Shown here: positions 31,617 to 52,115 of the stretch, one piece after another | How the letters are laid out: each line of letters opens with the position of its first letter | Position numbering within the stretch: position 1 is the first letter of the stretch | From: Bacilli bacterium | GTDB taxonomy: Bacteria > Bacillota_I > Bacilli_A > ML615J-28 > CAG-313 | Reading direction: 5' to 3' | Assembly (NCBI GenBank): GCA_045119035.1 | Contig: JBGVCU010000057.1 | Location: forward strand, 37,238 to 101,237 | DNA length: 64,000 nt | Notes under the pieces: model-generated | What the model saw: only the letters and a program-made list of their open reading frames with translations | Told to the model about the DNA's origin: nothing | The model's database searches: none | Position numbers and translations under genes: made by a program

Positions 31617-31676
31617 TAAAAAAGAATAAAACGTTTGCAAAATATATGTAAATATGTTATAATATATTGTAAAAAA

Positions 31677-31690
31677 TTTAAACGTTTCAA
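31677..31690 (+). promoter_or_regulatory. Candidate operator TTTAAACGTTTCAA between the -10 and the RBS
   Basis: One mismatch from the perfect palindrome TTGAAACGTTTCAA found at 38021-38036; related site ATAAAACGTTTGCAA at 31626-31640. Confidence 0.35.
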
Positions 31691-31712
31691 TGTAAGGAGG
31701 AAAAAACGTTAT

Positions 31713-35634: not shown

Positions 35635-36900
35635 GTGATTATTATGATCGATAAATTATTGCAAGAAGAAGCTTACTTATCATATAAATTTTTAATTGAT
35701 AATACTAATTTTGAAGAAAATCATCCTGGTGCTGGTTTAACAATTGATAGATCATCAAGAGATGATATGGCTACAATTGCTGCTAGTGGATTTATGCTAT
35801 CAGGACTTGTTATTGGTGTAGAACGTGGTTGGGATACATATGAAACTAACTTACAAAGAGCATATGTTACACTTAAAAACTTTAACGATAACATTCCAAA
35901 CTTCTTAGGTATGTTTGTACATTACGCAGATCCAAAAACAGGAAAAAGATATAAAAAATGTGAATACTCAACAATTGATACTGCACTATTTTTAAATGGT
36001 ATGATTACAGTTGACTCTTATTTTAAAGAGGAAAAAATCCATGAGCTAGTGTTAAGTATCTATGGAAGAATTGATTGGAACATTTTTACTTTTAAACGTA
36101 GAGGTCACTTACAATTTAGAATGGCTTACAACGATATTACTGGTGGAGATTACCTTGATAAAAATGAACATGGTTGGATTTATCATTGGAGTATGATTGC
36201 TGAACAACTATCTATGTATTTACTTGCAGCAGGATCAAAAGATATTACTAATGATGATGCTTTAAGACTATTTATGGGGTTTGATAGATATTCAGGTGGA
36301 TACAATGGGCATAACTATTTATATTCACCAATGGGGTCTTTATTTGTTTATCAATATTCTCATGCATGGTTTGATTTTAATAAATATTTAGATACAAAAG
36401 GATTTGACTGGTATAAAAATACTCAAGAAGCAATTGTTGCCAATTATGAATATTGTCGTGACAATCAACACCGTTTTAAAACATTTAAAGATGCTTGGGG
36501 GCTTTCAGCTTGCGATGGACCTAAAGGATATGTATCATATGGTCATCCACCTTTTGGTTGGGAAGATGAATTAAATCACCCAGATTTAATTGAAAGAACT
36601 GATGGAACTATTGCTATATATTCGTTACTATCTTCTTTACCATTTCATCCTGAACTAGTAAAAAATACAGTCAAAAATATATATGAAAAATATCCAACAT
36701 TATTCAGAGAATATGGATTTGTTGATAGTTTCAATAATGAAAATGGATTATGGGTTGGGGAAGATTATCTAGGTATTGATAAAGGTATTACTTTACTTAT
36801 GATAGATAACTATTACCATGGTACAACTTGGAAATATTACGTTGAAAATGAAATTATTAAGAGGGGACTACAAAAACTTCAGTTTCAAAGAAAGGAGTAA
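35635..36900 (+). CDS. Cytoplasmic (alpha/alpha)6-barrel glycoside-hydrolase-like protein (GH144-like endo-beta-glucanase candidate)
   Basis: No signal peptide. Paralogous to lipoprotein 50730-52106, with a shared GIDKGI(T/S)(L/V)LMI(D/E)NY end block and central W-rich helices. Family call is tentative. Confidence 0.5.
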   Translation: MIIMIDKLLQEEAYLSYKFLIDNTNFEENHPGAGLTIDRSSRDDMATIAASGFMLSGLVIGVERGWDTYETNLQRAYVTLKNFNDNIPNFLGMFVHYADPKTGKRYKKCEYSTIDTALFLNGMITVDSYFKEEKIHELVLSIYGRIDWNIFTFKRRGHLQFRMAYNDITGGDYLDKNEHGWIYHWSMIAEQLSMYLLAAGSKDITNDDALRLFMGFDRYSGGYNGHNYLYSPMGSLFVYQYSHAWFDFNKYLDTKGFDWYKNTQEAIVANYEYCRDNQHRFKTFKDAWGLSACDGPKGYVSYGHPPFGWEDELNHPDLIERTDGTIAIYSLLSSLPFHPELVKNTVKNIYEKYPTLFREYGFVDSFNNENGLWVGEDYLGIDKGITLLMIDNYYHGTTWKYYVENEIIKRGLQKLQFQRKE

Positions 36901-36903
36901 TAA

Positions 36904-37872
36904 GTGGTTACAATAAAAGATGTTGCAAAAGCTGCAGGAGTTTCTATTGCTACTGTATCATATGTATTAAACAATGATCCAAGAATAAAAAAAGAAACTG
37001 CTGAGAAAGTTTTGAAAGTTAGCAATGAGTTAAATTATGTTGCTAATGGCTCTGCAAAAATTTTAAAAACAAAAACAACAAACATTGTATTAACGGTTAT
37101 TCCTGAATTTGGAGGTCCAGTTCATGCGGAAATAATCGCTAATATTCATAAAACATTAAAAGAGCGAAATTATCAAATGTTAGTATGTGCTGGAGATATT
37201 GCTGAAGATATTTTATCTAGACAACTAACTGATGGAGTAATTGTATTAGATCCAAAAGTTAATCCTGAAATATTAAAAAAACTTGCTAAAACAAAAATAA
37301 AAGTTTTAGATACAAGAAAAATTTATAATTCAGACGATAATGTATATGTAAACCGTATAGATAGTTTTACTCCTTCAAAAGAACTTACAAAAATTGTTAT
37401 TAATGAAGGATATAAAAAAATTGGTTTCATGCATGGTAATTTAGAATCTCCAGATAACATCAAAAGATTTAACGGATTTAGTGAAGCCTTAGAAGAATCA
37501 AATATTACTCCGAATTGTATTTTGTATGGTAATTTTACTGAGGATGATGGATATAAGGCAATTAAAGAATATGTAGAAAACGGGAATATCTTACCTGAAG
37601 TATTATTCTGCTCAAATGATGAAATGGCAATAGGTGTTATTAATTATTTGAAAAATGCTGGATATAATTTGCCTAAAGATATAAAAATAATTGGATTTGA
37701 TAATATTAAAGCTGGTTTATATACTAATCCAACTCTTTCTACAATTGATATTAACTCAGTTGATTGGGCGAGAAATCTTGCTAATATTATGATTGATTTA
37801 ATTGAAAATAAAGATATAAATCTTAATAAATATATTCTAAAATATAAAATAATTAGAAGAGAATCTTTCTAA
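36904..37872 (+). CDS. LacI-family transcriptional regulator
   Basis: GTG start after AAGGAG. N-terminal HTH MVTIKDVAKAAGVSIATVSYVLNN. Periplasmic-binding-fold C-terminal domain. Confidence 0.85.
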   Translation: MVTIKDVAKAAGVSIATVSYVLNNDPRIKKETAEKVLKVSNELNYVANGSAKILKTKTTNIVLTVIPEFGGPVHAEIIANIHKTLKERNYQMLVCAGDIAEDILSRQLTDGVIVLDPKVNPEILKKLAKTKIKVLDTRKIYNSDDNVYVNRIDSFTPSKELTKIVINEGYKKIGFMHGNLESPDNIKRFNGFSEALEESNITPNCILYGNFTEDDGYKAIKEYVENGNILPEVLFCSNDEMAIGVINYLKNAGYNLPKDIKIIGFDNIKAGLYTNPTLSTIDINSVDWARNLANIMIDLIENKDINLNKYILKYKIIRRESF

Positions 37873-37945: not shown

Positions 37946-38020
37946 AACGTTTGCATTTTCATCCAAAAAAGTGTATAATTATATACGTAAAAAGAGACGT
38001 AAATAAAAATGACGATTGAA

Positions 38021-38036
38021 TTTGAAACGTTTCAAA
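38021..38036 (+). promoter_or_regulatory. Perfect 16-bp palindrome TTTGAAACGTTTCAAA between the -10 and the RBS of the SBP gene; candidate LacI-family operator
   Basis: Perfect dyad centred on CG, 15 bp upstream of ATG 38051. Confidence 0.45.
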
Positions 38037-38050
38037 ATAGGAGGACAAAA

Positions 38051-39502
38051 ATGAAAAAAATTATGCTATTTTTAGCTACTGCAATTTTAACTTTCGTTTT
38101 AGTTAGTTGTGGTAATCCAGGCGATACTCCAGGTACTGGTGATGGAGAAAAAGATATCGTATTAACTTACGCTGCATGGAACTTAGGATCTGCTGATTCT
38201 GACACTCCAAATATGGAAAGATTAATGTTAGAAGAATTTGAAAAAGCACATCCTGGTATTAAAGTAGAAGTTGTTGAACGTCCAAAAGTTCCCGGAACTG
38301 ATGGAGATCAAGCATGGAATGAATTCTTAGGAGCAAAAGCTTCTGTAGGACAATTACCAGACGTATTCATGGCTGATAACATTCCTTACTATGTAATCAA
38401 TGACTGGGCTTATAATTTATCAACAATTGCTAATGCAGATGCTGAATATAAAAATATTTCAACTGATATTACAGGAGCTGCAACATATGAAGGTAAAGTA
38501 ATGGCATTACCAAGCGCTGTTCACTATATGGGTTATGTAGTTAACAAATCTTTATATGAAACTAAAAACTTAGATGCTCCAACTGTTGAATCAACTATGG
38601 AAGAAGTTTTAAGTTTAACTAAACAAGCTGCTGACCATGGTAGTACAACTCAACAAGGTGTTGTTGGATTCGAAGGTATTGAACATATTTTACACTGGTA
38701 TCCAGCTCAATTAAATGAAGATTATGGATGGTTTACATTTGATGGTGAAAAATTTAATTTAGATAGTGCTGAATTCCAAACAGCAGTAGAATTATATCGT
38801 GAATTAAAACAATCTCCTGACTATGTATTAGAAGCATTACAATATGTTTCTGATCAAGAAGGATCAAATGTTGTTTTAGAACAAATTTTCCCTAATTTAG
38901 ATTACTTTAACAGTAATGCAATTTTATGTAAATGGTTCTATACATATGATTTTGGTTGGATGCAACAAAAAATTGACAGCGGTGAATACTATTGGGATTT
39001 AGATTTCATTGGTACTCCAGTTGTTAACGGTGTTAAAAAAGTTCCATCAGTAATTGACTTCTTAACAATCGCAAAGACTAGTGAACATCCTCAAGAAGCT
39101 TATGAACTTGCAAAATGGATGGGATTTGGAAAAGAAGGTTACTTAAAGAGAATAGAATTATCAAACGAAGTTGAAGGTATTTCATTAGTAAACTTTGCAC
39201 CAATTCAAAATGATGCAGATTTAATGGATGAATATTTCGGTATCTACCCATCATTCACAGGATTAAGATCAATTATCGAAGCAGGTAACTTTGTAGTTGA
39301 ACCTCCAAAATTCCAAGTTGGATATGATAAAGTTCGTTATAACGGAAATTATAATGAAGACAACAAAATGGGTGATATTATTAACCAATTAATGGGTGGA
39401 GAAGTGTTAATCGCTGATATCAAAGATGCACTTAACGGTAGAGCAAACGCTATCTATCAAGCAGAATATGCAACTTTCTACTCTGAATTAGAAAAAAGAT
39501 AA
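38051..39502 (+). CDS. Sugar ABC transporter substrate-binding lipoprotein (family 1 / CUT1-like)
   Basis: ATG after AGGAGG. Lipobox LVSC plus a Gly/Asp/Thr-rich linker. Family-1 SBP blocks. Optimal-looking codon usage. Confidence 0.8.
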   Translation: MKKIMLFLATAILTFVLVSCGNPGDTPGTGDGEKDIVLTYAAWNLGSADSDTPNMERLMLEEFEKAHPGIKVEVVERPKVPGTDGDQAWNEFLGAKASVGQLPDVFMADNIPYYVINDWAYNLSTIANADAEYKNISTDITGAATYEGKVMALPSAVHYMGYVVNKSLYETKNLDAPTVESTMEEVLSLTKQAADHGSTTQQGVVGFEGIEHILHWYPAQLNEDYGWFTFDGEKFNLDSAEFQTAVELYRELKQSPDYVLEALQYVSDQEGSNVVLEQIFPNLDYFNSNAILCKWFYTYDFGWMQQKIDSGEYYWDLDFIGTPVVNGVKKVPSVIDFLTIAKTSEHPQEAYELAKWMGFGKEGYLKRIELSNEVEGISLVNFAPIQNDADLMDEYFGIYPSFTGLRSIIEAGNFVVEPPKFQVGYDKVRYNGNYNEDNKMGDIINQLMGGEVLIADIKDALNGRANAIYQAEYATFYSELEKR

Positions 39503-39516
39503 TTTATAAATAATTT

Positions 39517-39556
39517 AAGTACCAAAATACAAATAGTCTGTATTTTGGTACTTTGT
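39517..39556 (+). terminator. Rho-independent terminator (possibly leaky, since the next gene starts 24 bp later)
   Basis: GTACCAAAATACA-AATAGTC-TGTATTTTGGTAC followed by TTTGTTTTT. Confidence 0.55.
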
Positions 39557-39579
39557 TTTTAATAATAAAGGAGCAAACA

Positions 39580-42500
39580 ATGAAAAGAAAAATTTGGATT
39601 ATTGTTATAGCGGTTGTTATTTTAGCAGTTATCGTATTTGCAATTACTGGTTCAAAAACAGATGCTCCAAATATTAACTTAGATAATACTGAGTTAGATT
39701 TGACTTTTTCTGCAACAGATGAATCATATTTAAAATACAAAGAAGATAATAAAAATTTACCAATCGCAAATCAAGAATTTATTATTTTTCCAGAAGATTT
39801 AACTAGTTCAGAAGTAGAGTTTAATTCAACTAATGTTGAAAATCATCCTGAACTTAAAGAAGTATTCCACTGGGAAAAGAATTCTACATCCACAATTTCA
39901 TTTGTTTTAGATGATAATAATGTTGAAACACATTTAGCTAAAAAACTATATGTTATTGAAATTGAATACTATTCTTTAGTAGATTCAATTATTGATATTG
40001 AATTTGGATTAGAAATAAATGGAAAAACTCCATTCTTTGAAGCTTCTCAAATCAACTTAACAACTCTATGGAAAATGAGTGGAGAAGTAAGTGTTGACCG
40101 TTATGGTAATGATGTTAATATGTCTCAAGATGTATATAGATCATGGCAAACAGCTGTACTTCAAGATTCAACTAGACTTGCTAAAGAAGGATTAATTTTT
40201 GCTTTAGAAGAAGGAGATGAAATCTCTTTAACAAAAATTAATGGAGAAGTAAAAATTGGTAGAATTATTGTGAGACCAATTGAAAAACATGTTTCATATG
40301 AACAATATATTGGAAATAACACAGTTAAAAATACTGAAGCTATTAGATATGAAGCAGAACAAATGCTTAATAAAAGCAACACAACAATCAATATGAGTAC
40401 AAGTAGAGAAGTTGGTGTTGAACCATTTGATGTTAAAAATTTAAGACTTAATATCATTGGTGAAGGTTCATGGGGATCTTCAGGAGAATTTATTACTTGG
40501 GAAGTAGAAGTGCCTGAGGATGGTTATTATAACCTTGCGTTTAAAGTAAAACAATCAACTGAAAACACAACATCATATCGTACATTATATGTAAATGGAG
40601 AAATTCCATTTGAAGAAGCAAAACATTTACCATTCTCATATACATCTGAATGGACAAACGTACCTATTCAAGGAATTGATGGTACTAAATATGCTATTAA
40701 ATTAAATGCAGGAAAAAATGAAATTAGATTAGAAGTTGATAGTACATTATATCATTCTATTTCTGAGAAATTAAGCTCAATTACTGCTGAAATGAATGAA
40801 ATGGGTCTAGATATTACTAAATATACAAACGGTAATACATCAAAAGGTATTGACTGGGATATTGAAGAAAACTTCCCTGATATGAAACCTAAAATTCAAA
40901 AATGGGTTACTGAATTAAATTTAGTAATTGATACTTATAGAAAAATTTCAGGATTTAATAAAACTACAACATTATCACAAGATTTAGGTACAGCAGTACA
41001 AAAATTAGAAAAAATCATTGCTGATATTGAAGAATTGCCAAGAAGACTTTCACTTTTATCAGAAGGTTCTTCATGTGCTGCCCAACTTGTTGCAGGACAA
41101 ATGGATTCGGTTTTAACTCAAGGATTAGTTGTTGATAGTTTCTATATTTACTCAAATGAAGAAGATTTACCTAAACCAACAGGAAACTTTATTCGTTCAT
41201 TATGGGTAGGAATTCAAAGATTCTTTATTTCATTTTTTGATGATTCTTATAAGACAGATTCATCAAATGATGATGAATTAATCGTTTGGGTTAATAGATC
41301 TAGACAATATGCGGATGTTATTCAAAAATTAGCTGATGCTGCAACTGCAAATGGTGAATTACCATTCCAAGTTAAAGTATCTCTAATGAGTGATGATGGA
41401 AAATTAATTTTAGCAAACTCTGCAAACCAACAACCAGATGTAGCTTTAGGGGTTTCTGCTTGGATTCCAAATGACTATGGTATGCGTGGTATGTTAACAG
41501 ATTTAAGACAATTTGATGGATATTTAGATTTAATTAGTGAATTTAATCCTGAACAATTAGTTCCAATGACATATGATGATCATCTATACGGATTACCAGA
41601 AACAGAAAACTTCTATGTTTTATTCTATCGTACAGATACTTTAAATAAATTAGGTTTAACTATTCCAAATACATGGGATGATGTAATCGATATGTTACCT
41701 GTTTTAAAACGTTATGATATGGATTTCTATATTCCACTTTCAAACGGATCATCATCAAAATCATTTGATACAACTGCACCATTTATTTATCAATTTGAAG
41801 GTGAAGTATATTCATACAACAATAAAGGTATTTTAACTGGTGGTTTAGAAAATGAACAAACAATTCAAGCTTTAGAATTTATTACAGATTTATACACTGA
41901 ATATGGATTACCTTACCAAGTATCAAGCTTCTTTAATGAATTTAGATACAATAGAATTCCTATTGGTATTGCTGATTTCTCAACATATTTAAATTTATTA
42001 AATGGTGCTCCAGAAATTCAAGGTTTATGGGATATTACTGTTGTTCCTGGAATTAAAGTAACAGATGGTTCTGGAAATTCTAGAGTTAACCGTTATATGC
42101 CTGGTGCTCAACAAGCCGGTGTAATTTTTGAAAAGAGCGAAAAACAACAAGAAGCATGGTATTTCTTAAGCTGGTGGATGAGTAAAGATACTCAATCTGA
42201 ATATGCTAGTACAATGGTTAATACTTTAGGTAAGAGATATTTATGGAATACAGGTAATATGGAAGCATTCAAAGAACTTGCTTGGAATGAAGATCATAAA
42301 AAAGTCATTATGGAACAATGGACTCATTTAAAAGAAGTTTCAAGAATTCCTGGATATTACATTGTAGAACGTGAAATTTCTAACTCATGGAATAAAGTAG
42401 TTTATAACGATGAAAACTTAAGAAGCACACTTAGTGATGCTATGATTAAAATTACAAAAGAAATAACTCGTAAAATGCAAGAATTTGGTTATGTTGATAG

Positions 42501-42585
42501 TAAAGGAAATGTAACAGATAAACAATATATAATTCCTTCAACAGAATCAATTAATAAATGGAAGGAGGGAAATAAAGATGAGTAG
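39580..42585 (+). CDS. TM-anchored 1010-aa protein: ~520-aa unknown N-terminal extracellular region fused to a family-1 SBP domain
   Basis: ATG after AAAGGAG. One N-terminal TM (IWIIVIAVVILAVIVFAI). C-terminal half carries SBP blocks (LANSANQQPDVALGVSAWIP ... NFYVLFYRTD ... W). Overlaps the next permease gene by 8 nt. Confidence 0.6.
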   Translation: MKRKIWIIVIAVVILAVIVFAITGSKTDAPNINLDNTELDLTFSATDESYLKYKEDNKNLPIANQEFIIFPEDLTSSEVEFNSTNVENHPELKEVFHWEKNSTSTISFVLDDNNVETHLAKKLYVIEIEYYSLVDSIIDIEFGLEINGKTPFFEASQINLTTLWKMSGEVSVDRYGNDVNMSQDVYRSWQTAVLQDSTRLAKEGLIFALEEGDEISLTKINGEVKIGRIIVRPIEKHVSYEQYIGNNTVKNTEAIRYEAEQMLNKSNTTINMSTSREVGVEPFDVKNLRLNIIGEGSWGSSGEFITWEVEVPEDGYYNLAFKVKQSTENTTSYRTLYVNGEIPFEEAKHLPFSYTSEWTNVPIQGIDGTKYAIKLNAGKNEIRLEVDSTLYHSISEKLSSITAEMNEMGLDITKYTNGNTSKGIDWDIEENFPDMKPKIQKWVTELNLVIDTYRKISGFNKTTTLSQDLGTAVQKLEKIIADIEELPRRLSLLSEGSSCAAQLVAGQMDSVLTQGLVVDSFYIYSNEEDLPKPTGNFIRSLWVGIQRFFISFFDDSYKTDSSNDDELIVWVNRSRQYADVIQKLADAATANGELPFQVKVSLMSDDGKLILANSANQQPDVALGVSAWIPNDYGMRGMLTDLRQFDGYLDLISEFNPEQLVPMTYDDHLYGLPETENFYVLFYRTDTLNKLGLTIPNTWDDVIDMLPVLKRYDMDFYIPLSNGSSSKSFDTTAPFIYQFEGEVYSYNNKGILTGGLENEQTIQALEFITDLYTEYGLPYQVSSFFNEFRYNRIPIGIADFSTYLNLLNGAPEIQGLWDITVVPGIKVTDGSGNSRVNRYMPGAQQAGVIFEKSEKQQEAWYFLSWWMSKDTQSEYASTMVNTLGKRYLWNTGNMEAFKELAWNEDHKKVIMEQWTHLKEVSRIPGYYIVEREISNSWNKVVYNDENLRSTLSDAMIKITKEITRKMQEFGYVDSKGNVTDKQYIIPSTESINKWKEGNKDE

Positions 42586-43513
42586 TAAAGGTAAAATAGC
42601 AACTTTTATCGAAAAAGAGAAAAAAGCATTTAAAACCGATGATAAATCAGCGTATTTATTTGCGGCTCCATATATCATCTTATTTACAATTTTCATTATT
42701 CTTCCAACAATTTATGCGATTTATTTGTCATTTACAAGTTTTAATATGGTTGGAAAACCTAAATGGAATACTTTCCAAAACTATATTTTCTTACTTACAA
42801 GTGACTCTGAATTCATGAAATATATATTACCTAATACAATTAAATTCAGTTTAATTGTTGGACCAGGTGGATATATTTTATCATTTATGATGGCTTGGTG
42901 TTTATCACAATTACCTCATAGATTAAGAACAGTTTTAGCTGTAATTCTTTATTCTCCATCACTTACTGCCGGTATTACAATGAGTGTTGTATGGAAGGTA
43001 GTATTTGCGGGGGACTCAAGTGGTTACCTAAACTATATTCTGATGGAACTTGGATTGATTGTTGAGCCTATTGCTTTCTTACAATCCGAAAAATACTTAT
43101 TTACAATAATGGTTATTGTTACCCTTTGGGGTAGTATGGGTGTTGGGTTCTTAGCAATGCTTGGAGGTATCCTAAATGTAAACCCAGAACTATACGAAGC
43201 GGCTTACTTAGATGGTATGCATAGCCGTTGGCAAGAAATCATTTATATTACAATTCCACAAATGAAATCTTCAATGTTATTCGGTGCGGTAATGACAATT
43301 GTAGGAACATTTAGTTCCGGTGCAATTGGGGTACAACTATCCGGTTCAAACCCAACACCAAACTATTCAGGTTCATTAATTCTGAACCATATTGAAGACT
43401 ACGGATTTATTAGATACGACATGGGATATGCGGCTGCCTTATCTGTTGTATTATTAATAATTATCTATGTATTTAGTAAAGTGGCTAATGCTTTATTTAA
43501 GGAGAAAGACTAA
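42578..43513 (+). CDS. Sugar ABC transporter permease (MalF/UgpA-like)
   Basis: Six TM helices; EAA loop EAAYLDGMHSRWQEIIYITIPQ. Confidence 0.85.
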   Translation: MSSKGKIATFIEKEKKAFKTDDKSAYLFAAPYIILFTIFIILPTIYAIYLSFTSFNMVGKPKWNTFQNYIFLLTSDSEFMKYILPNTIKFSLIVGPGGYILSFMMAWCLSQLPHRLRTVLAVILYSPSLTAGITMSVVWKVVFAGDSSGYLNYILMELGLIVEPIAFLQSEKYLFTIMVIVTLWGSMGVGFLAMLGGILNVNPELYEAAYLDGMHSRWQEIIYITIPQMKSSMLFGAVMTIVGTFSSGAIGVQLSGSNPTPNYSGSLILNHIEDYGFIRYDMGYAAALSVVLLIIIYVFSKVANALFKEKD

Positions 43514-43515
43514 TT

Positions 43516-44400
43516 ATGGCATTTAGAAAATCAAAATATAGTGTTACAAAAGTCAATCCTAAATCATTTAATTTAGGTCAATTACCGTTCTTACTTGCGG
43601 TATTACCAATTGCAGCCTTTATGCTTTTACCACTATTATACATATTTAATCATGCATTTAAACCGTTTGATGAATTACTAGAATATCCTCCAAAATTCTT
43701 TGTAAGTCGTCCTACATTTAACAACTTTAAAGAATTATTTAAAGCATCTTCAACAACAGCAATTCCAGTATCAAGATATTTATTTAATAGTATCGTTATT
43801 ACAATTGTTGTAGTTGTATTATCAATTATTTTAAGTTCAATGGCAGGTTTTGCTTTATCAAAACTAAAATTCCATGTAAATAAAGTTATTAATGAAGTTA
43901 ATACTATTGCCTTAATGTTCGTAGGAGTTGCTGTTACAATTCCTAAGTATATGATTATTGAAAAACTTGGTTTAGTTGATAATTTCTTAGTTCATATTAT
44001 TCCGGTCTTAGCAGTTCCAGTCGGATTATTCTTGATTAAACAGACAATCGATGATATTCCTAATGAACTAATCGAAGCAGCAAAAATGGATGGTGCTTCA
44101 AGCTTTAGAATTTATTGGTCAATCATTCTTCCAATGATTAAACCAGCTATGGCAACTGTTGCAATTCTTTCTTTCCAAACAGTATGGAATGATGCAAGTA
44201 TTTCTGCAACATATTTAAACGATGATACACTGAAGACCTTCGCATACTACGTATCGACCCTATCTTCAGCATCAAACTCTACAGCAGGAATGGGAATGTC
44301 TGCTGCAGCAACACTTATTATGTTCTTACCTAACTTAATTATCTTTATTATTTTACAAGGTAAAGTTATGAGCACAATGGCTCATTCAGGTATTAAATAG
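43516..44400 (+). CDS. Sugar ABC transporter permease (MalG/UgpE-like)
   Basis: EAA loop EAAKMDGASSFRIYWSIILPMIKP; six TM helices. Confidence 0.85.
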   Translation: MAFRKSKYSVTKVNPKSFNLGQLPFLLAVLPIAAFMLLPLLYIFNHAFKPFDELLEYPPKFFVSRPTFNNFKELFKASSTTAIPVSRYLFNSIVITIVVVVLSIILSSMAGFALSKLKFHVNKVINEVNTIALMFVGVAVTIPKYMIIEKLGLVDNFLVHIIPVLAVPVGLFLIKQTIDDIPNELIEAAKMDGASSFRIYWSIILPMIKPAMATVAILSFQTVWNDASISATYLNDDTLKTFAYYVSTLSSASNSTAGMGMSAAATLIMFLPNLIIFIILQGKVMSTMAHSGIK

Positions 44401-44408
44401 GTGATTGT

Positions 44409-46469
44409 ATGAAAAGATCAGTATTTAAGAAAATTACAATATTAGTATTTATTTGTTTATTTTGTATTTTAGGTATCTCATCTACAAAAATTACAGCATC
44501 AGCTGCCTCAAACGTAAATGGTGTTCCTTATACAACTTATACAAAAAGTGTTCACGGGCTATCTCCTACGCAAACTGCATACATTCCTGTAGGTGTTATT
44601 TGTGAAACACACAATTTATCTAGTGCATCTGATATCTACTTTTATGAAAATAGCCTATATATAGCAGATACAGGTAACAAACGTATAATTCAATCGGACA
44701 TTAAAGGAAATATTATTAAAGAGTATAAACACGAAGAATTCATGTCTCCTACTGGTGTATTCGTAACAGAAGAAAGTGTTTATATCGCAGATAAAGCAGC
44801 AAAAACTGTATTTAAAGTAAGTCATGACTTAGATGCAACTGGAGCTGCAAATATCGAACTTCGTGTTGTTAAACCTTCTAAATCACCAATCTTTGGTAAC
44901 CACGATTTTGTTCCTACAAAAGTTGCGGTAAAATCAAATAGAAATATTTATGTTATTGGTGAAGGTTCAACAAACGGTATTATTGAATTCAACTATGATG
45001 GTGAATTCTTAGGATACTTAGGTATCAACAGTGTAGAATTATCATTAAGATCAATTATTTTTGGTTTCTTACTAAAAGATTTTGATGGTGCTTCAGATAA
45101 ACCTAGTGCTCCAACAAACGTTGCTTTAGGTTTAAAAGGTTCAATCCTTTCTACTAACATAAACGTTGCTGAAACATTCAAACGTTTAAACATTACAGGT
45201 ATTAATACTTTACAAGCAACAACTACATATCCAACAGTAACTTTATCTGATATTATTATGAATGATGAAGGATATATCTATATGGTTGGTGAACAAGGTG
45301 AAGTATATGAATACGACAGTAAAGGTAATTTATTATTCACATTTAATACATATGACTTTGCTCAAACAAAAGCTTTAGGTTTAACTTCTAAACCTTCTGG
45401 TATTTGTTTAGATAATGATGGAAATATTTATATTTTAGATTCAAGTTATACAAATATTCAAATTTATCAAAAAACAGTATTCGTTGACTTAGTTCACAAA
45501 GCTGTTACTCTATACAATGAAGGTAGATATGAAGAATCTAAACCTTATTGGCTAGAAATCCAAAGACAAAATACTTCATTCTCTTTAGCTCATACAGCCC
45601 TAGGTTCTACACTTGCTAAAGAAGGAAAATACGAAGAAGCATTAAAAGAATTTGAACTTGCAAAAGATTACAATGGATATTCACAAGCATATTGGGAAAT
45701 CCGTAATGCTGCAATTCAATCAAATTTACCATTATGGTTAGGTATTATTTTTGGATCAATTATTTTACTTGTAGTTGCTTCAAAAGTATACAAAAAATCT
45801 CCAGCATTTGATGGTGTTAAAGCTGGTATTGCTAAATTTAAATCTAAGAAATTAGTAAGCGAACTTTTATATGGATTTAACATATTTAAGAAACCATCTG
45901 ATACATTCTATGGTATCAAAAAACAAGGTAAAGCAAGCTATTTATCAGGAATTATCTTACTTGCTTTATTCGTAATTATTTATTTAGTTGATATTTATTG
46001 TTCTGGATTCTTATTTAGATCAGAAGCAGGACTTTCATATGTTTCAGTACAACTTGCGTTAGTACTTGGACTATTTATGTTATTTGTTGTTGTTAACTAC
46101 TTCGTAAGTACATTAAGTGATGGTGAAGGTTGGTTTAGAGATATCTTTATTTCTTCAGCTTATGCTTTAATGCCTTTCATTGTATTAACATTACCAATGA
46201 CATTCTTATCACATTTCTTAACTTATAACGAAGGATTTATTGTTGAACTTTATACAACATTTACAATGGGATGGACATTATTCTTATTAATTTATGCTAT
46301 TAAAGAAGTTCATAATTATTCATTTAAGAAAACTTTAGGAAGTGTATTAATTATTATTTTTGGAATGATTATTTTAGTCTTAATCGGATTATTAGTATAT
46401 TCATTCATGGGTCAATTAATTGACTTCTTAGTAAGTATTGTTAAGGAGGTGTTCTATCGTGCGTTCTAA
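44409..46469 (+). CDS. Secreted NHL-type beta-propeller plus TPR protein with a C-terminal multi-TM (Yip1-like) domain
   Basis: Signal peptide; repeated YIAD(T/K) ... K(R/T)(I/V) blades; TPR-like helix pair (YNEGRYEESKPYW ... GKYEEALKEF); 5-6 C-terminal TM helices. Confidence 0.5.
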   Translation: MKRSVFKKITILVFICLFCILGISSTKITASAASNVNGVPYTTYTKSVHGLSPTQTAYIPVGVICETHNLSSASDIYFYENSLYIADTGNKRIIQSDIKGNIIKEYKHEEFMSPTGVFVTEESVYIADKAAKTVFKVSHDLDATGAANIELRVVKPSKSPIFGNHDFVPTKVAVKSNRNIYVIGEGSTNGIIEFNYDGEFLGYLGINSVELSLRSIIFGFLLKDFDGASDKPSAPTNVALGLKGSILSTNINVAETFKRLNITGINTLQATTTYPTVTLSDIIMNDEGYIYMVGEQGEVYEYDSKGNLLFTFNTYDFAQTKALGLTSKPSGICLDNDGNIYILDSSYTNIQIYQKTVFVDLVHKAVTLYNEGRYEESKPYWLEIQRQNTSFSLAHTALGSTLAKEGKYEEALKEFELAKDYNGYSQAYWEIRNAAIQSNLPLWLGIIFGSIILLVVASKVYKKSPAFDGVKAGIAKFKSKKLVSELLYGFNIFKKPSDTFYGIKKQGKASYLSGIILLALFVIIYLVDIYCSGFLFRSEAGLSYVSVQLALVLGLFMLFVVVNYFVSTLSDGEGWFRDIFISSAYALMPFIVLTLPMTFLSHFLTYNEGFIVELYTTFTMGWTLFLLIYAIKEVHNYSFKKTLGSVLIIIFGMIILVLIGLLVYSFMGQLIDFLVSIVKEVFYRAF

Positions 46470-48720
46470 AACAAAGATAATCATCTCAAGTATTTTATTA
46501 CTTTTAATTGTAACTGCTATTAGCGTTTCTATTTACGCTAGTATCGACGAAAGTGATGTTGAACTTGCTGGATTTAATAATATTAGTGAATTCTATCCAT
46601 CAAATAGACATACATATCAAGAAGATTATAAAACTGCAACAAGTGTTGCTCCTGAGGTTTTAGGAGACAAAGTAAAAGAAATTTCTACTGAAATTGGTAA
46701 AGTTGAAGTTGATGAAGAAACATTAGCTTTCAAGTTTACAAACAATAGAGGTTATACTTGGGCTAGTACAGTAGATTATACAAAAGAAGATGCAGAACTT
46801 AATTCAAAAAATAAAAATAGAGTTAGATCTGCGATAATTTTAAATGTATATGATACTACAAGTGCATCATATAATATAAGAGAATATTATATGTCAGATG
46901 CACAAAGCGTTACTGTTTCTGAAATTACAAATGGATTTAGTGCTAAAGTTAAATACTATGAAAAAGCTAAAAAATATCTATTAGATATTACAATTACAAT
47001 CAATGTTACATTTACAAATGATGGAATTAATGTTTCAATTCCAAGTGAAACAATTATTGAAAATGGTGATTTCTTAGTAAATAATATTTTAGTATATCCT
47101 TATTTTGGAAGTGTTAAAGAAAATCAAGTTCCTGGATATATCTTTGTTCCAGATGGTGTAGGTGCTCTTGTAAGATATAAAAAAGCATCAACTGTTTCTC
47201 TAACAAATTATGAAAAATATATTTATGGTAAAGATTTATCATACTCAGCATCTTCAAATTTATTAACTGAAGATGTTCAAGATTCAAAAATTTATGCTCC
47301 TGTATACGGTTTTGTACATGGTGTAAATCAAAATGCTATGTTTGCTGTTATTGAAGATGGTGCTGAATACGGAAGCGTTAATGTAGAATTCTCTACAAGC
47401 TCAATGAAATATTCTACAGTTTATCCACGTTTTACATATCGTAGAACATATTCTCAACCAATGGATAAATCAGGAAATACAATTACTTTATTACAAAAAG
47501 ACAAAAATGAATTTGATATCAATATTAAATTCTTATCATTAGAAAATGAACAAGCTAACTATGTAGGTATGGCAAATGCTTATAACGATTACCTACAAAG
47601 TACTCAAAATCTTTCAAATAAACAAAACAATTCATCAATTAGTCTAAGAGTTGATACAATTGGTCTTGAAAGAACAGAAGGTGTATTATTTGATAAGAAA
47701 ATCGTTATGACAACTTTCAAAGAATATAAAGAAATCTTAGATACTTTAACTAACTCTGGTGTAAGTAATATTACTGGTGTATTTAAAGGATTTACAAACA
47801 ATGGTGTATCTTGGGCTGCTCCAAATTATGAAAAAGTTTCAAAGAAATTAGGATCACAAAATAGTTTAGAAGACTTAGTTGAAAACTACAATGTTTACTT
47901 TGAAACAGAATATCAAAAAGCAACATCACGTGTTGGTGGATATAATTCATATTTTGATTTAGCTAAAAAAATTAACGATCAACGTTATGCGTATACATAC
48001 GGTGATTATGATGCTTATTTACTTACTCACAGTAAAACTGTAGAAGTATTAAAAGAAAGTGTTGAAAAACTAGAAAAAGCAACAATTAAAAATTTATATA
48101 TCCAATCTATGGGAAGCTTATTATATTCAGATTTTGCAAATGATGTTTCATTAACAGAAGCTCAAGCTATTTATAATAATGCTTTAAAAGAAGTAAAAGG
48201 TAATGTTGCATTATCAAGTGTATATGCTTATCTTTGGGGTTCAATTGATGAATATTTCGATTTCCCATTATATAGCAGTCAATATTTAACATTTGATGAT
48301 ACTGTTCCATTCCTTGCAATTACATTATCTAATTCAATGAATCTATATTCTTCATATGCTAACTTCTATGCATATCCAAGAGAAGAATTATTAAGATTAG
48401 TTGATTATAATGTATATCCTTCATTTATTGTTACAAATGAATCTTCAAGTTTACTTGAAAAAACAAATTTAAATAATATCTATTCTTCAAAATTTGAAGA
48501 CCTAGCAAACGCTGTTACAACTTACTATCAATTTGTTAATACTCCACTTAAAAATGTAATTGGAGCAAGTCTTGTTTCAAGAACAATTCCATCAAATGGT
48601 ATTGTAATTAATAAATATAGTAATAACGTTGAAATTATTATTAACTATACAAACGTAAAACAAGTAGTTAATGGTGTTACAGTTGAAGCTATGAATTATC
48701 ATGTAGGAGGTGTAAACTAA
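46459..48720 (+). CDS. Signal-anchored 760-aa extracellular protein of unknown function
   Basis: GTG start 9 nt after AAGGAGG, overlapping the previous gene by 11 nt. The stop overlaps the next ATG by 1 nt (TAATG), so it is embedded in the transporter operon. Confidence 0.5.
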   Translation: MRSKTKIIISSILLLLIVTAISVSIYASIDESDVELAGFNNISEFYPSNRHTYQEDYKTATSVAPEVLGDKVKEISTEIGKVEVDEETLAFKFTNNRGYTWASTVDYTKEDAELNSKNKNRVRSAIILNVYDTTSASYNIREYYMSDAQSVTVSEITNGFSAKVKYYEKAKKYLLDITITINVTFTNDGINVSIPSETIIENGDFLVNNILVYPYFGSVKENQVPGYIFVPDGVGALVRYKKASTVSLTNYEKYIYGKDLSYSASSNLLTEDVQDSKIYAPVYGFVHGVNQNAMFAVIEDGAEYGSVNVEFSTSSMKYSTVYPRFTYRRTYSQPMDKSGNTITLLQKDKNEFDINIKFLSLENEQANYVGMANAYNDYLQSTQNLSNKQNNSSISLRVDTIGLERTEGVLFDKKIVMTTFKEYKEILDTLTNSGVSNITGVFKGFTNNGVSWAAPNYEKVSKKLGSQNSLEDLVENYNVYFETEYQKATSRVGGYNSYFDLAKKINDQRYAYTYGDYDAYLLTHSKTVEVLKESVEKLEKATIKNLYIQSMGSLLYSDFANDVSLTEAQAIYNNALKEVKGNVALSSVYAYLWGSIDEYFDFPLYSSQYLTFDDTVPFLAITLSNSMNLYSSYANFYAYPREELLRLVDYNVYPSFIVTNESSSLLEKTNLNNIYSSKFEDLANAVTTYYQFVNTPLKNVIGASLVSRTIPSNGIVINKYSNNVEIIINYTNVKQVVNGVTVEAMNYHVGGVN

Positions 48721-49655
48721 TGGAAAATAAGAATTTAGATTCTCAAGTTAGTCAAATTGAACAACCTCGTAAAATGAAAAAAATGAGTAAGAAAACTAGA
48801 GATACTTTAGTTGGATATTCATTTATCGGTATTTGGATTATTGGTTTCTTAGTATTTATGTTAATCCCTGTTATTAACTCTGTAATTTATAGTTTCAGTG
48901 TTGTTAAAATTGAAAGTACAGGTATTAAGATTACTCCAAACGGAACTAAAAACTTCTTAAATATTTTCCAAGCTCCAGAAGGTCTTGCTTTTACCGAAGC
49001 ATTACTTGGATTTGCTAAAGAATTAATCGTTCAAGTTCCAATTATTATTGTATTCTCAATTATTATTGCTATCTTATTAAATCAACCAATTAAATGTCGC
49101 GGTTTATTTAGAGCAGTTTTCTTCTTACCAGTTATTATTTCATCTGGTCCAGTTATTAATGAATTAGTAACTCAAGGTGCAGGTGGAGCAAGTTTAATGT
49201 CTTCAATGGGATTTACAACAATGTTAGAAGACTTATTAGGACCAACTCTTGCTGAACCTATTACAGGACTATTCTCTGATATTATTATTATATTCTGGTT
49301 CTCAGGAGTACAAATTTTAATTATGCTTGCTGGTATTCAAAAAATGGATAAACAAGTATATGAAGCAGCTCACGTTGATGGTGCTGGAAGCTGGGAAATT
49401 TTCTGGAAAATTACTTTACCATCACTAAAAGCTTTAATTTTCGTTAGTACAATTTATACAATTGTATTATTATCAACATTCTCTAACAATGAAGTAATTG
49501 TTCAAATTAAGAATAATATGTTTGCAACAGATGCTAACTTCGGTTATGGTTTCGCAAGTGCAATGTCATGGATTTACATGCTTGTTATGGCGTTATTCAT
49601 TATTCTTGTTTGTGTTGTGTTACTTCCTAGAGATAAGAAAAGAGGTGCTAAATAA
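48720..49655 (+). CDS. Sugar ABC transporter permease (second pair, MalF-like)
   Basis: EAA loop EAAHVDGAGSWEIFWKITLPSLK; six TM helices. Confidence 0.85.
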   Translation: MENKNLDSQVSQIEQPRKMKKMSKKTRDTLVGYSFIGIWIIGFLVFMLIPVINSVIYSFSVVKIESTGIKITPNGTKNFLNIFQAPEGLAFTEALLGFAKELIVQVPIIIVFSIIIAILLNQPIKCRGLFRAVFFLPVIISSGPVINELVTQGAGGASLMSSMGFTTMLEDLLGPTLAEPITGLFSDIIIIFWFSGVQILIMLAGIQKMDKQVYEAAHVDGAGSWEIFWKITLPSLKALIFVSTIYTIVLLSTFSNNEVIVQIKNNMFATDANFGYGFASAMSWIYMLVMALFIILVCVVLLPRDKKRGAK

Positions 49656-50728
49656 TGGTATTACTTACTTTCGCAATTATTTTAGTCATCGCCCTTATTA
49701 TTTCATTAATTAGTTATGTAATTAAAGAATTTAAAAAACCAAAAGGTGAAAGATTTGATGTAAAAGGTCAAATCAACCAAAAGATTAATACATTAAAAAA
49801 TCTTAATAAACAAAAAGTTAAAAACTTCTTATTTGGAACTAACTTTAGACGTGGTTGGTTACCAAGTGCTGTTGTATATGTTTTATTAATTAGTATTGGA
49901 TTTGTATACTTATATCCAGTATTATATATGATTTCAAACAGTTTCAAAAGTTTAAATGACATTGTTAACCCATCAGTTAGTTGGGTTCCAACACAATTTT
50001 ATTTAGATAACTTCTCAAGAGCATTTAGAGTATTAAACTTCTTTAAAGTATTATTAAAGAGTTTACCAGTTACTTTACTTCCTGCAGTATTACAAACAGG
50101 TATTTGTTCTGTAATTGGTTATGGATTTGCTAAATTTGAATTCAAAGGAAAATTTGTGGTTTTAGTACTAGTTATTTTAGCATTCATTATTCCTTCTCAA
50201 ATTTATATGATTCCTAAATATGTATTATTCTATGATATGGGATTCTTCGCAAAAGGTAAAGAAAATATGCAATTCTTAACAATTGCACTTCCTGCATTAT
50301 TAGGACAAGGATTAAACTCATCAATCTTTATTCTAATTTTCTATCAATTCTTTAAGATGATTCCATATTCATTAAATGAAGCAGCAGAAATTGATGGTTG
50401 CGGTCCATATAGAACATTCTTCACTATCGGTGTTCCTCTTGCAGGTCCTGCATTCTTAATCTGCTTCTTATTTGGATTTGTATGGTATTGGAATGAAACA
50501 TATTTCTTAAGTATGTTTGCTCCTGAATTCCCTAACTTACAAATTAAATTATCATACTTTGTATCAGAATATACTGAACTTTACAAAGATGATCAAATGT
50601 TAAAATTAAACGAAGGTGTAAGACTAGCTGCAACACTTCTAATCTTACTTCCAATGTTAATAATTTATCTATTCTTACAAAAATGGTTCGTTGAAGGTAT
50701 CGAACGTTCAGGTATTACAGGTGAATAA
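49655..50728 (+). CDS. Sugar ABC transporter permease (second pair, MalG-like)
   Basis: EAA loop EAAEIDGCGPYRTFFTIGVPLAGP; six TM helices. Confidence 0.85.
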   Translation: MVLLTFAIILVIALIISLISYVIKEFKKPKGERFDVKGQINQKINTLKNLNKQKVKNFLFGTNFRRGWLPSAVVYVLLISIGFVYLYPVLYMISNSFKSLNDIVNPSVSWVPTQFYLDNFSRAFRVLNFFKVLLKSLPVTLLPAVLQTGICSVIGYGFAKFEFKGKFVVLVLVILAFIIPSQIYMIPKYVLFYDMGFFAKGKENMQFLTIALPALLGQGLNSSIFILIFYQFFKMIPYSLNEAAEIDGCGPYRTFFTIGVPLAGPAFLICFLFGFVWYWNETYFLSMFAPEFPNLQIKLSYFVSEYTELYKDDQMLKLNEGVRLAATLLILLPMLIIYLFLQKWFVEGIERSGITGE

Positions 50729-50729
50729 T

Positions 50730-52106: not shown

Positions 52107-52115
52107 GCGTGAAGT

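What the first reader, a model, noticed from the sequence alone, without database searches (positions are those of the whole stretch)
39580..42585. Membrane-anchored 1010-aa fusion: unknown ~520-aa ectodomain joined to an ABC substrate-binding domain
Ordinary Gram-positive sugar SBPs are ~430-500-aa lipoproteins. Here a complete family-1 SBP domain follows a long N-terminal extracellular region with no recognisable motif, anchored by a single TM rather than a lipobox. A canonical lipoprotein SBP (38051) sits just upstream, so the fusion may be a glycan-docking or second-specificity receptor feeding one of the two permease pairs.
Basis: partly seen in the sequence, partly recalled or inferred. 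Interest (0 to 1): 0.55.

Follow-up and report, generated by a model that had tools for sequence, protein, structure and literature searches.

The report
Sugar-binding transporter receptor with CBM-like arm
This gene encodes a membrane-anchored sugar-uptake receptor with two carbohydrate-binding-module-like domains and a helical stalk; the fusion is real and widespread, and it always leads the same uncharacterised seven-gene cassette in hundreds of Bacillota and Mollicute species, gut bacteria among them.

Summary
The ORF is real. With the likely ATG start at 39580 it encodes 1001 aa; the 1010 aa in the title counts from a TTG inside a hairpin. It has an N-terminal signal-anchor helix and no lipobox. 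The C-terminal half is a complete MalE-type family-1 SBP, closest in the PDB to the Listeria sophorooligosaccharide binder Lin1841.

The "unknown" ectodomain folds with high confidence (pLDDT 92). It consists of two CBM35/CBM6-like beta-sandwiches, a helical bundle and a short connector.

The fusion is not rare. The N-terminal module alone finds 1277 clusters (50% identity) at E<=1e-30, and nearly all top hits are about 950-1000 aa. At least 569 species carry it.

In 64 of 64 loci with enough flank the gene is followed by permease-permease, an NHL-propeller/TPR/Yip1 membrane protein, DUF5696 (distantly GH129-like) and permease-permease. A 500-aa SBP sits beside the cassette in most loci. Flanking CAZymes change by clade; here they are GH144-like enzymes and SOGP, which points to beta-1,2-glucan.

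Best reading: this is the receptor of the first importer in a conserved surface glycan capture and import cassette. Whether the sandwiches bind glycan or partner proteins is unresolved. I found no literature on the fusion or the cassette. Novelty: new variant of a known kind. Interest 0.57.

The parts
39517..39553 (.). Terminator-like hairpin (15-17 bp stem, T tail) between the lipoprotein SBP gene and the fusion gene. It is probably a partial terminator or RNA stabiliser. No promoter-like site lies between it and the ATG.
39567..39573 (+). Shine-Dalgarno AAAGGAG, 6 nt before ATG 39580.
   Evidence: read directly
39580..42585 (+). CDS of the 1001-aa fusion protein ('BIGSBP'), stop codon included.
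39583..39651 (+). aa 2-24: N-terminal signal-anchor TM helix, no lipobox.
39757..40275 (+). aa ~60-232: beta-sandwich 1. It is CBM35/CBM6-like and carries a conserved loop insertion, DRYGNDV (aa 173-179).
   Evidence: 2w47 E 0.0065; CBM_35 26.6 bits in homologue P0078
40327..40737 (+). aa ~250-386: beta-sandwich 2, CBM35-like (YEAE...YRTLYVNG...G.NEI.LEV pattern).
   Evidence: 2vzp TMt 0.78; 5x7g E 1e-11; CBM_35 21.1 bits here; 28.9 bits in homologue P0026, cut-off 28
40744..41109 (+). aa 389-510: helical bundle of five helices, with the conserved loop motif ELPRRL.LLS.GSS in the Acholeplasma/Bacilli-type clade. No convincing structural or sequence relative was found.
41128..41238 (+). aa 517-553: connector made of one beta-strand and a conserved hydrophobic helix (NF..LWV.I.RFF.SFFD).
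41272..42582 (+). aa 565-1001: complete MalE-type (cluster B, CUT1) substrate-binding domain.
38051..39502 (+). Canonical lipoprotein SBP ('SBP1'), the probable receptor of the second permease pair. Its homologue PDB 22hh matches at E 7e-51.
36904..37872 (+). LacI-type regulator. It is syntenic in relatives.
42578..43513 (+). Permease A1 (BPD_transp_1). Its start overlaps the fusion gene's stop by 8 nt.
43516..44400 (+). Permease A2 (BPD_transp_1).
44409..46469 (+). Membrane protein with an extracellular six-blade NHL beta-propeller (PknD-sensor-like), a TPR and a C-terminal Yip1 multi-TM domain.
46438..48720 (+). N-terminally anchored DUF5696 protein, a distant homologue of GH129 glycosidases.
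48720..49655 (+). Permease B1 (BPD_transp_1).
49655..50728 (+). Permease B2 (BPD_transp_1).
50691..52106 (+). PF10091 'Glycoamylase' protein, the domain found in GH144 endo-beta-1,2-glucanases.
52116..55361 (+). [quoted passage not shown] It is the last gene before the terminator-like hairpin at 55368-55397.
35635..36900 (+). Second PF10091 (GH144-like) protein, with no signal peptide.

Best explanation
The gene encodes the surface-tethered substrate receptor of a CUT1-type ABC sugar importer.

Shown: an N-terminal signal-anchor helix holds the protein on the outer face of the membrane. The C-terminal 440 aa form a complete MalE-type binding protein. Its gene overlaps the first of two permease genes.

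Shown by prediction and fold search: between the anchor and the SBP lies a rigid module of about 500 aa, made of two CBM35/CBM6-like beta-sandwiches, a helical bundle and a connector.

Shown by comparative genomics: the protein is the lead gene of a conserved cassette. The order is fusion SBP, permeases A1 and A2, an NHL-propeller/TPR/Yip1 membrane protein, a GH129-like DUF5696 ectoprotein, permeases B1 and B2, plus a small lipoprotein SBP. In this window the cassette is embedded in a LacI-controlled locus with two GH144-like enzymes and SOGP.

Inferred mechanism: the N-terminal module holds polymeric or long oligomeric glycan, and/or the DUF5696 and propeller partners, next to the transporter. 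In this organism the glycan is most likely beta-1,2-glucan or sophorooligosaccharides. The SBP domain captures released oligosaccharides and delivers them to permeases A1/A2. SBP1 serves B1/B2. A shared MsmX/MsmK-type ATPase encoded elsewhere energises both importers. The cytoplasmic GH144-like enzymes and SOGP finish degradation.
For: - Architecture: Pfam SBP_bac_1 and SBP_bac_8 hits. Lin1841 is the best PDB sequence hit, E 9e-11 over aa 561-949. AF2 full-length model: pLDDT 86.8, pTM 0.77. N-terminal model: pLDDT 92, pTM 0.89.
- Fold: Foldseek matches the SBP half to MalE-type SBPs, with Lin1841 (5ysb) at TMt 0.82. It matches the sandwiches to CBM35/CBM6 (2vzp 0.78, 2w1w 0.73, 2w47 0.70). 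The family profile hits the CITase CBM35 at E 1e-11. CBM_35 reaches Pfam's cut-off in homologue P0026.
- Always fused: the N-terminal-only profile finds 3119 representatives, 1277 at E<=1e-30. Almost all of the top 150 are 940-1030 aa with the module at aa ~40-560; the shorter ones are probably truncated contigs.
- Cassette: 64 of 64 loci with at least 9.5 kb downstream have permA1, permA2, NHL/Yip1, DUF5696, permB1 and permB2, in that order in 57 (best-hit labels place permA2 last in 7). SBP1 is adjacent upstream in 25 and downstream in 30.
- Operon: there are no terminator-like hairpins between 39580 and 55361, and genes overlap or are tightly spaced.
- Substrate context: PF10091 twice and all four SOGP domains.
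- Partners are extracytoplasmic or membrane proteins: the NHL/Yip1 propeller matches the PknD sensor (1rwi) at E 1.7e-41, and DUF5696 matches GH129 at E 1.8e-7.
- No ABC ATPase is encoded in the window.
Against: - No binding or transport data exist. The window protein's own CBM_35 score (21.1 bits) is below Pfam's cut-off of 28.
- The sandwiches carry few clade-specific conserved positions (5-6%, against 16% in the SBP and the helical bundle). Their conserved residues are shared by clades whose flanking CAZymes differ: GH144/SOGP, GH51, and GH31/GH65. A substrate-specific CBM would be expected to diverge with the substrate.
- The SBP half is only about 21% identical to Lin1841, so the beta-1,2-glucan assignment rests mainly on gene context. 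A GH81 (beta-1,3-glucanase family) gene also lies upstream.
- The pairing of BIGSBP with A1/A2 and of SBP1 with B1/B2 is inferred from adjacency only.
- A physical complex is inferred from synteny only.
Confidence: 0.6

Rival explanations
1. The N-terminal module is a protein-protein scaffold, not a glycan binder. The CBM-like sandwiches and helical bundle would hold the DUF5696 ectoprotein and/or the NHL propeller of the Yip1 protein against importer A. Only the SBP domain and SBP1 would touch sugar.
For: - Sandwich 2 is the best-conserved N-terminal part between clades: 34% identity and 16% shared-conserved positions. Both sandwiches have few clade-specific positions, although the flanking CAZymes differ.
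- The helical bundle is conserved within clades but not between them (16% clade-specific, 3% shared). That pattern fits co-evolution with a partner.
- Co-occurrence with DUF5696 and NHL/Yip1 is invariant, 64 of 64 loci.
- In the window protein the CBM_35 match is sub-threshold.
Against: - The fold and the profile matches point specifically to sugar-binding CBM35/CBM6 modules.
- No partner contact has been predicted or measured.
- Conserved CBM residues could equally be structural (the EAE calcium-site pattern, the R..L.VNG core; recognised from general knowledge of CBM6/35, not tested).
Confidence: 0.28
2. The protein is not a transport receptor. It would be a surface glycan-binding or sensing protein whose SBP-fold domain has been co-opted, as SBP-like sensor domains are, and it would signal to or regulate the cassette through the Yip1 protein.
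For: - SBP folds are reused as sensor domains (general knowledge).
- The NHL propeller resembles the PknD sensor domain.
- A second, canonical SBP is present.
Against: - The cytoplasmic part is only about 4 residues (MKRK), so it cannot signal on its own.
- The gene overlaps the first permease gene, and there are two permease pairs for two SBPs.
- The A1/A2 permeases are the most conserved cassette genes and always follow this gene.
- No kinase or regulator domain occurs in the cassette.
Confidence: 0.08
3. The long ORF is an artefact: a misassembly, or a read-through fusion of two separate genes.
For: None beyond the unusual length.
Against: - More than 200 full-length homologues of 940-1030 aa occur in independent assemblies from several orders.
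- Conservation is continuous across the domain junction.
- The full-length model is confident.
Confidence: 0.01

Closest known systems
Lin1841, the sophorooligosaccharide-binding SBP of Listeria innocua (PDB 5YSB-5YSF)
   Same: It has the MalE-type two-lobe fold. It is the best PDB sequence hit (E 9e-11, aligned over aa 561-949) and the highest Foldseek TMt among the top-ranked PDB matches (0.82) for the C-terminal half. Both proteins are encoded next to a GH94 1,2-beta-oligoglucan phosphorylase.
   Different: Lin1841 is an SBP of about 400 aa with no N-terminal module. Identity is only about 21%. The ligand of the window protein is untested.
CBM35/CBM6 modules of glycoside hydrolases (CITase CBM35 5X7G/3WNK, CsxA CBM35 2VZP, C. 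thermocellum CBM35 2W47)
   Same: Both have the beta-jelly-roll fold (TMt 0.70-0.78, about 20% identity). The profile-to-sequence match is E 1e-11. The typical YEAE...NG...G.N.I.L pattern is present.
   Different: Here the modules are attached to a transporter binding protein rather than an enzyme. They are in tandem and followed directly by a helical bundle. The window protein scores below Pfam's cut-off (21.1 vs 28 bits). Sandwich 1 carries a family-specific DRYGNDV loop. Sugar binding is untested.
Sus-like surface systems of Bacteroidota (SusD/E/F binders, SusG enzyme, SusC transporter)
   Same: The logic is the same: a conserved core of surface binder(s), a surface GH-like protein and transporter genes, flanked by CAZymes that vary with the lineage.
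   Different: The components are unrelated: ABC importers rather than a TonB-dependent transporter, a cytoplasmic membrane rather than an outer membrane, and no SusC/D homologues. A physical complex is only inferred here.
Large DUF3502-type SBPs of Bacillota (LplA-like, about 550 aa)
   Same: They are oversized family-1 sugar SBPs of Gram-positive bacteria.
   Different: Their extension is a C-terminal DUF3502 domain. The window protein has no DUF3502 hit, and its extension is N-terminal and 500 aa long.
YknW of the Bacillus subtilis YknWXYZ transporter (recalled from memory, not tested here)
   Same: It is a Yip1-family membrane protein encoded with an ABC transporter and acting with it.
   Different: YknWXYZ is an exporter-type system with no SBP. 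YknW has no NHL propeller or TPR.
GH129 glycosidases (ZgGH129 5OPQ, NagBb 5WZN), compared with the cassette partner DUF5696
   Same: The DUF5696 profile aligns over about 490 residues at E 1.8e-7 to 9e-6.
   Different: No invariant acidic pair lies in the barrel region. The only invariant or near-invariant acids are E208 and D239, which lie upstream of it, and positions 411, 621 and 656 are mixed D/E. Catalytic competence is therefore open. DUF5696 is membrane-anchored and extracellular.

Membership tests
ABC transporter family-1 (CUT1, MalE-type) substrate-binding proteins | Match to Pfam SBP_bac_1 or SBP_bac_8 above the curated cut-off | tested here: met
   60.1 bits (cut-off 26) and 58.5 bits (cut-off 27), aa 596-878
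ABC transporter family-1 (CUT1, MalE-type) substrate-binding proteins | Complete two-lobe alpha/beta fold with hinge | tested here: met
   AF2 model pLDDT 86.8. Foldseek TMt 0.70-0.82 to many liganded and apo SBPs over about 420 columns
ABC transporter family-1 (CUT1, MalE-type) substrate-binding proteins | Encoded with two BPD_transp_1 permease genes | tested here: met
   Permeases at 42578-43513 and 43516-44400, with an 8-nt overlap. The arrangement is conserved in all 64 informative loci
ABC transporter family-1 (CUT1, MalE-type) substrate-binding proteins | Extracytoplasmic tether (lipid anchor or TM helix) in bacteria without a periplasm | tested here: met
   Signal-anchor helix at aa 2-24, no lipobox. 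The same holds in nearly all of the 71 relatives examined
ABC transporter family-1 (CUT1, MalE-type) substrate-binding proteins | Binds a solute and delivers it to the permease | not testable with these tools
   Needs ITC or DSF and transport assays
CBM35 (CAZy carbohydrate-binding module family 35) | Significant sequence similarity to family members (Pfam CBM_35 above cut-off) | tested here: inconclusive
   Window sandwich 2: 21.1 bits, E 3.9e-4, cut-off 28. Homologue P0026: 28.9 bits. Homologue P0078, sandwich 1: 26.6 bits. Family profile vs the CITase CBM35: E 1e-11
CBM35 (CAZy carbohydrate-binding module family 35) | Beta-jelly-roll fold | tested here: met
   Foldseek 2vzp TMt 0.78, 2w1w 0.73, 2w47 0.70, rmsd 2.2-2.9 A
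CBM35 (CAZy carbohydrate-binding module family 35) | Conserved ligand-binding and calcium-site residues in the loop site | not tested
Only the pattern-level YEAE and R..L.VNG motifs were seen
CBM35 (CAZy carbohydrate-binding module family 35) | Demonstrated carbohydrate binding | not testable with these tools
   Needs binding assays
DUF3502-type large SBPs | C-terminal DUF3502 domain | tested here: not met
   No DUF3502 hit at E<=0.01, and the extension is N-terminal
Beta-1,2-glucooligosaccharide SBPs (Lin1841-like) | Close sequence relationship to Lin1841 and conserved binding residues | tested here: inconclusive
   It is the best PDB hit, but at only about 21% identity. The paper listing the binding residues was not available
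Beta-1,2-glucooligosaccharide SBPs (Lin1841-like) | Genomic association with SOGP and beta-1,2-glucanase genes | tested here: met
   SOGP at 52116-55361, and PF10091 proteins at 35635-36900 and 50691-52106. The association is kept in Acholeplasma, Izemoplasma and Bacilli relatives but not in Lachnospiraceae

The most novel reading that the evidence does not exclude
The fusion protein would be the glycan- or partner-holding receptor of a previously unrecognised multi-protein surface machine of Bacillota and Mollicutes. The machine would comprise two ABC importers organised around a beta-propeller/TPR/Yip1 membrane scaffold and a GH129-like ectoenzyme. It would form a substrate-adaptable core cassette, functionally analogous to Bacteroidota Sus utilisomes, and would be present in at least 569 species, including gut Lachnospiraceae, Roseburia and Faecalibacterium.
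Probability: 0.3. Interest if true: 0.8.

Novelty: new variant of a known kind. Interest (0 to 1): 0.57.

Why it matters
ABC sugar importers of Gram-positive bacteria are usually described as a lipoprotein SBP plus two permeases. Surface glycan capture is attributed to separate CBM-bearing enzymes.

Here a CBM-like tandem is built into the receptor itself. The receptor always travels with a second importer, a Yip1-family membrane protein carrying a sensor-like propeller, and a GH129-like DUF. These genes are annotated only generically in hundreds of species, among them abundant gut butyrate producers.

If the cassette works as one unit, it would be a Gram-positive counterpart of the Sus paradigm. 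It would also give functions to DUF5696 and to bacterial Yip1 proteins. In addition, it would provide a marker for finding glycan-utilisation loci whose flanking enzymes indicate the substrate.

Tried and rejected
- Pfam and NCBIfam on the whole protein gave nothing for aa 1-560.
- Eight literature searches found no paper describing the fusion or the cassette. Terms covered DUF5696, PF18952 and IPR043751, Yip1 with SBP or ABC, CBM35 with SBP, CBM-fused SBPs, beta-1,2-glucan SBPs, and PDB ids 22HH-22HJ.
- The beta-1,2-glucanase family paper and the LpSOGP paper do not discuss such transporters.
- The Lin1841 structure paper is not held, so its binding residues could not be compared.
- DUF5696 as a single sequence gave no PDB hit. 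Only the profile did.
- No Foldseek hit covered the helical bundle convincingly. BcsB, Cry, Vip3 and SID1 matches have TM below 0.2 and were set aside. De novo coiled-coil and haemagglutinin sequence hits to it are compositional.
- Model coordinates are not exposed to scripts, so binding-site mapping and domain-contact analysis were impossible.
- Longer family members (1043-1275 aa) were checked for informative extra domains. None were found.
- The artefact (misassembly) reading and the DUF3502 reading were both rejected.
Full report
**Observation.** The ORF list shows 39553..42585 (+), 1010 aa from a TTG. The TTG lies inside a 15-17-bp terminator-like hairpin at 39517-39553 that follows the upstream SBP gene. 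From 39580 the product is 1001 aa, and gene callers assign that same length to a 78%-identical relative. The N-terminus (MKRK plus 21 uncharged residues, no Cys) is a signal anchor, not a lipobox. The upstream SBP has LVSCGN after its Met at 38051. Pfam places SBP_bac_1 (60.1 bits) and SBP_bac_8 (58.5 bits) at about aa 596-878 and nothing before aa 560. NCBIfam adds nothing.

**Anatomy.** I aligned 70 full-length homologues (A1) and predicted two structures.
- The fragment aa 30-560 has mean pLDDT 92.0 and pTM 0.89.
- The full protein has pLDDT 86.8 and pTM 0.77. That is high for a 1001-aa multidomain chain and suggests a defined arrangement.

The elements are:
- TM helix, aa 2-24
- beta-sandwich 1, aa ~60-232
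- beta-sandwich 2, aa ~250-386
- helical bundle, aa 389-510
- one strand (aa 517-524) and a conserved hydrophobic helix (aa 537-553)
- SBP, aa 565-1001

Foldseek against the PDB matches the sandwiches to CBM35/CBM6 modules: 2vzp at target-normalised TM-score (TMt) 0.78, 2w1w 0.73, 2w47 0.70, at about 20% identity, plus CBM-carrying enzymes. A profile of the N-terminal region alone (A3) hits the CBM35 of cycloisomaltooligosaccharide glucanotransferase at E 1e-11 (sandwich 2) and 2w47 at E 0.0065 (sandwich 1). Scanned on its own, the window's sandwich 2 scores 21.1 bits on Pfam CBM_35, below the cut-off of 28. Homologue P0026 reaches 28.9 bits, and P0078 scores 26.6 bits on sandwich 1. The helical bundle has no convincing relative. 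The C-terminal half superposes on MalE-type SBPs. The highest TMt among the top-ranked PDB matches (0.82) is to Lin1841 (5ysb), the Listeria beta-1,2-glucooligosaccharide binder. Lin1841 is also the best PDB sequence hit, E 9e-11 over aa 561-949.

**Distribution.** The protein database returned 223 homologues. The best 120 are almost all 940-1004 aa and come from Acholeplasmatales, Izemoplasmatales, 'Tenericutes', Bacillales and Lachnospiraceae. They are named only 'extracellular solute-binding protein' or COG-style 'glycerol-3-phosphate SBP'. These include Bacillus, Paenibacillus, Cohnella, Fundicoccus, Erysipelothrix, Roseburia, Agathobacter, Faecalibacterium, Oscillospiraceae and one Thermotogota MAG. 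The N-terminal-only profile, searched against 1.84 billion representatives, found 3119 proteins at E<=1e-3 and 1277 at E<=1e-30. Nearly all of the top 150 are 940-1030 aa with the module at aa ~40-560; the shorter ones are probably truncated contigs. The module therefore essentially always occurs fused to the SBP. Longer members have no extra informative domains. The signal-anchor N-terminus is family-wide, with only rare lipobox variants.

**Gene neighbourhood.** Downstream in the window lie:
- two permeases, the first overlapping the fusion gene by 8 nt
- a 686-aa protein with NHL repeats, a TPR and a C-terminal Yip1 domain
- a 760-aa DUF5696 protein
- two more permeases
- a PF10091 (GH144-type) protein
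- a GH94 1,2-beta-oligoglucan phosphorylase with all four SOGP domains

Upstream lie a second PF10091 protein, LacI and the lipoprotein SBP. Terminator-like hairpins flank the region, but none lies inside 39580-55361. No promoter-like site lies in the 77-nt spacer before the fusion gene, so transcription probably reads through from the SBP1 promoter. No ABC ATPase is encoded in the window. That is usual for CUT1 systems in Bacillota, which share an MsmX/MsmK-type ATPase (general knowledge).

I BLASTed the window proteins against all ORFs of the 80 fetched loci. In 64 of 64 loci with at least 9.5 kb downstream, all of permA1, permA2, NHL/Yip1, DUF5696, permB1 and permB2 are present. In 57 they lie in that order; in 7 the best-hit labels place permA2 after SBP1. 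An SBP1 homologue lies immediately upstream in 25 loci and after permB2 in 30. The second arrangement argues that SBP1 serves B1/B2 and the fusion SBP serves A1/A2.

The flanking enzymes differ by clade:
- GH144-like and SOGP in Acholeplasma, Izemoplasma and Bacilli types, as in this window
- a GH51 arabinofuranosidase and a winged-helix regulator in about 18-20 Lachnospiraceae loci
- GH65 and a GH125-like enzyme in five Clostridia loci, with GH31 in these and five further loci
- elsewhere GH43, GH3, or GH16 with CBM6

The cassette is thus a conserved core next to variable CAZymes.

**Partners.** The DUF5696 profile (A4) hits GH129 structures: 5opq at E 1.8e-7, 8rzg at 2.9e-7 and NagBb (5wzn) at 9e-6, aligned over about 490 residues. 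Its invariant acids (E208, D239) lie before the barrel region, and the barrel positions 411, 621 and 656 are mixed D/E. Catalytic competence is therefore uncertain. The NHL/Yip1 profile (A5) matches the six-blade sensor propeller of PknD (1rwi, E 1.7e-41) and TPRs.

**Interpretation.** The shown facts support a surface-tethered receptor of importer A carrying a CBM-like accessory arm, inside a conserved two-importer cassette. In this organism the context points to beta-1,2-glucan or sophorooligosaccharides, although a GH81 gene upstream leaves beta-1,3-glucan open.

What the arm does is inferred. I compared 49 Acholeplasma/Bacilli-type members with 20 Lachnospiraceae-type members:

| Region | Clade-specific conserved | Shared conserved |
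|---|---|---|
| SBP | 16% | 19% |
| Helical bundle | 16% | 3% |
| Sandwich 1 | 5% | 8% |
| Sandwich 2 | 6% | 16% |

This fits substrate specificity residing in the SBP. The sandwiches would have a function common to all clades. That could be generic glycan holding, calcium-dependent structure, or docking of the equally conserved DUF5696 and NHL partners. I therefore rate 'receptor of importer A with an accessory arm that concentrates glycan and/or partners' at 0.6. The pure-scaffold reading of the arm gets 0.28, a non-transport sensor 0.08 and an artefact 0.01.

**Comparison with known systems.** The C-terminal half passes every testable membership criterion for family-1 SBPs. CBM35 membership is met for fold, inconclusive for sequence threshold, and untested for ligand residues. 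The DUF3502-type large-SBP reading fails. The cassette works like a Sus-type 'binder plus enzyme plus transporter' core but shares no components with it. Eight literature searches found nothing on DUF5696, on Yip1 with SBPs, or on CBM-SBP fusions.

**Verdict.** The functional proposal is plausible but unproven. I rate it a new variant of a known kind: an SBP-dependent ABC importer with a built-in CBM-like arm and fixed non-transporter partners. Interest is 0.57. This instance is one ordinary member of the family, but the family and its cassette appear uncharacterised, widespread and experimentally tractable.

Noticed in passing
window 46438-48720 (+): DUF5696, a Pfam family of unknown function that no paper in the library mentions, is a distant homologue of GH129 glycosidases (5opq E 1.8e-7; NagBb 5wzn E 9e-6). 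It lacks an invariant acidic pair in the barrel region. It is N-terminally membrane-anchored and always part of the cassette.
   Followed up: partly
window 44409-46469 (+): A 686-aa protein combines a PknD-sensor-like six-blade NHL propeller, a TPR and a C-terminal Yip1 multi-TM domain. It lies between the two permease pairs in all 64 informative loci. In three Paenibacillus/Cohnella loci it gives two separate ORF hits.
   Followed up: partly
window 31635-35489 (+): A 1284-aa ORF; counted from its internal Met (MKKLTKFF...) the lipoprotein (LVACGEEK) is about 1259 aa. It has about nine repeats of roughly 130 aa with the motif 'LVKPNDNGAYEKW', and no Pfam hit. Homologues lie upstream of SBP1 in related Acholeplasmataceae and Izemoplasma loci. 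It may be a repetitive surface glycan-binding protein.
   Followed up: partly
window 26914-29277 and 29430-31538 (+): Two paralogous lipoproteins of 787 and 702 aa share N-terminal and C-terminal regions and internal repeats ('SGYIYD...'). Neither has a Pfam hit. They sit between the GH81 gene and the repeat lipoprotein.
   Followed up: no
window 23857-26718 (+): A GH81 (endo-beta-1,3-glucanase family) protein with a bacterial Ig-like domain. It suggests the wider locus may also target beta-1,3-glucan.
   Followed up: no
window 38009-39502 (+): The small lipoprotein SBP has a fairly close solved relative, PDB 22hh-22hl ('Extracellular solute-binding protein family 1', E 7e-51). I could find no paper for it, so its ligand is unknown to me.
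   Followed up: partly
window 39517-39553: A strong hairpin, terminator-like on both strands, lies directly between the SBP1 stop and the fusion gene's RBS. No promoter-like site follows it. This suggests attenuated read-through, giving excess SBP1 relative to the downstream genes.
   Followed up: partly
window 19465-22623 (+) and 4368-8678 (+): Two further very long ORFs: 1052 aa with no Pfam domain, and 1436 aa with only weak P-loop or helicase-like hits. Both are of unknown function.
   Followed up: no
loci L024-L080 (Lachnospiraceae), e.g. L055:8171-9691 and L060:6834-7802: In about 18-20 Lachnospiraceae loci the same cassette is preceded by a GH51 alpha-L-arabinofuranosidase and a winged-helix regulator. 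In five Clostridia loci it is preceded by GH65 and a GH125-like gene, with GH31 in these and five further loci. The core cassette is reused with different enzyme sets.
   Followed up: partly
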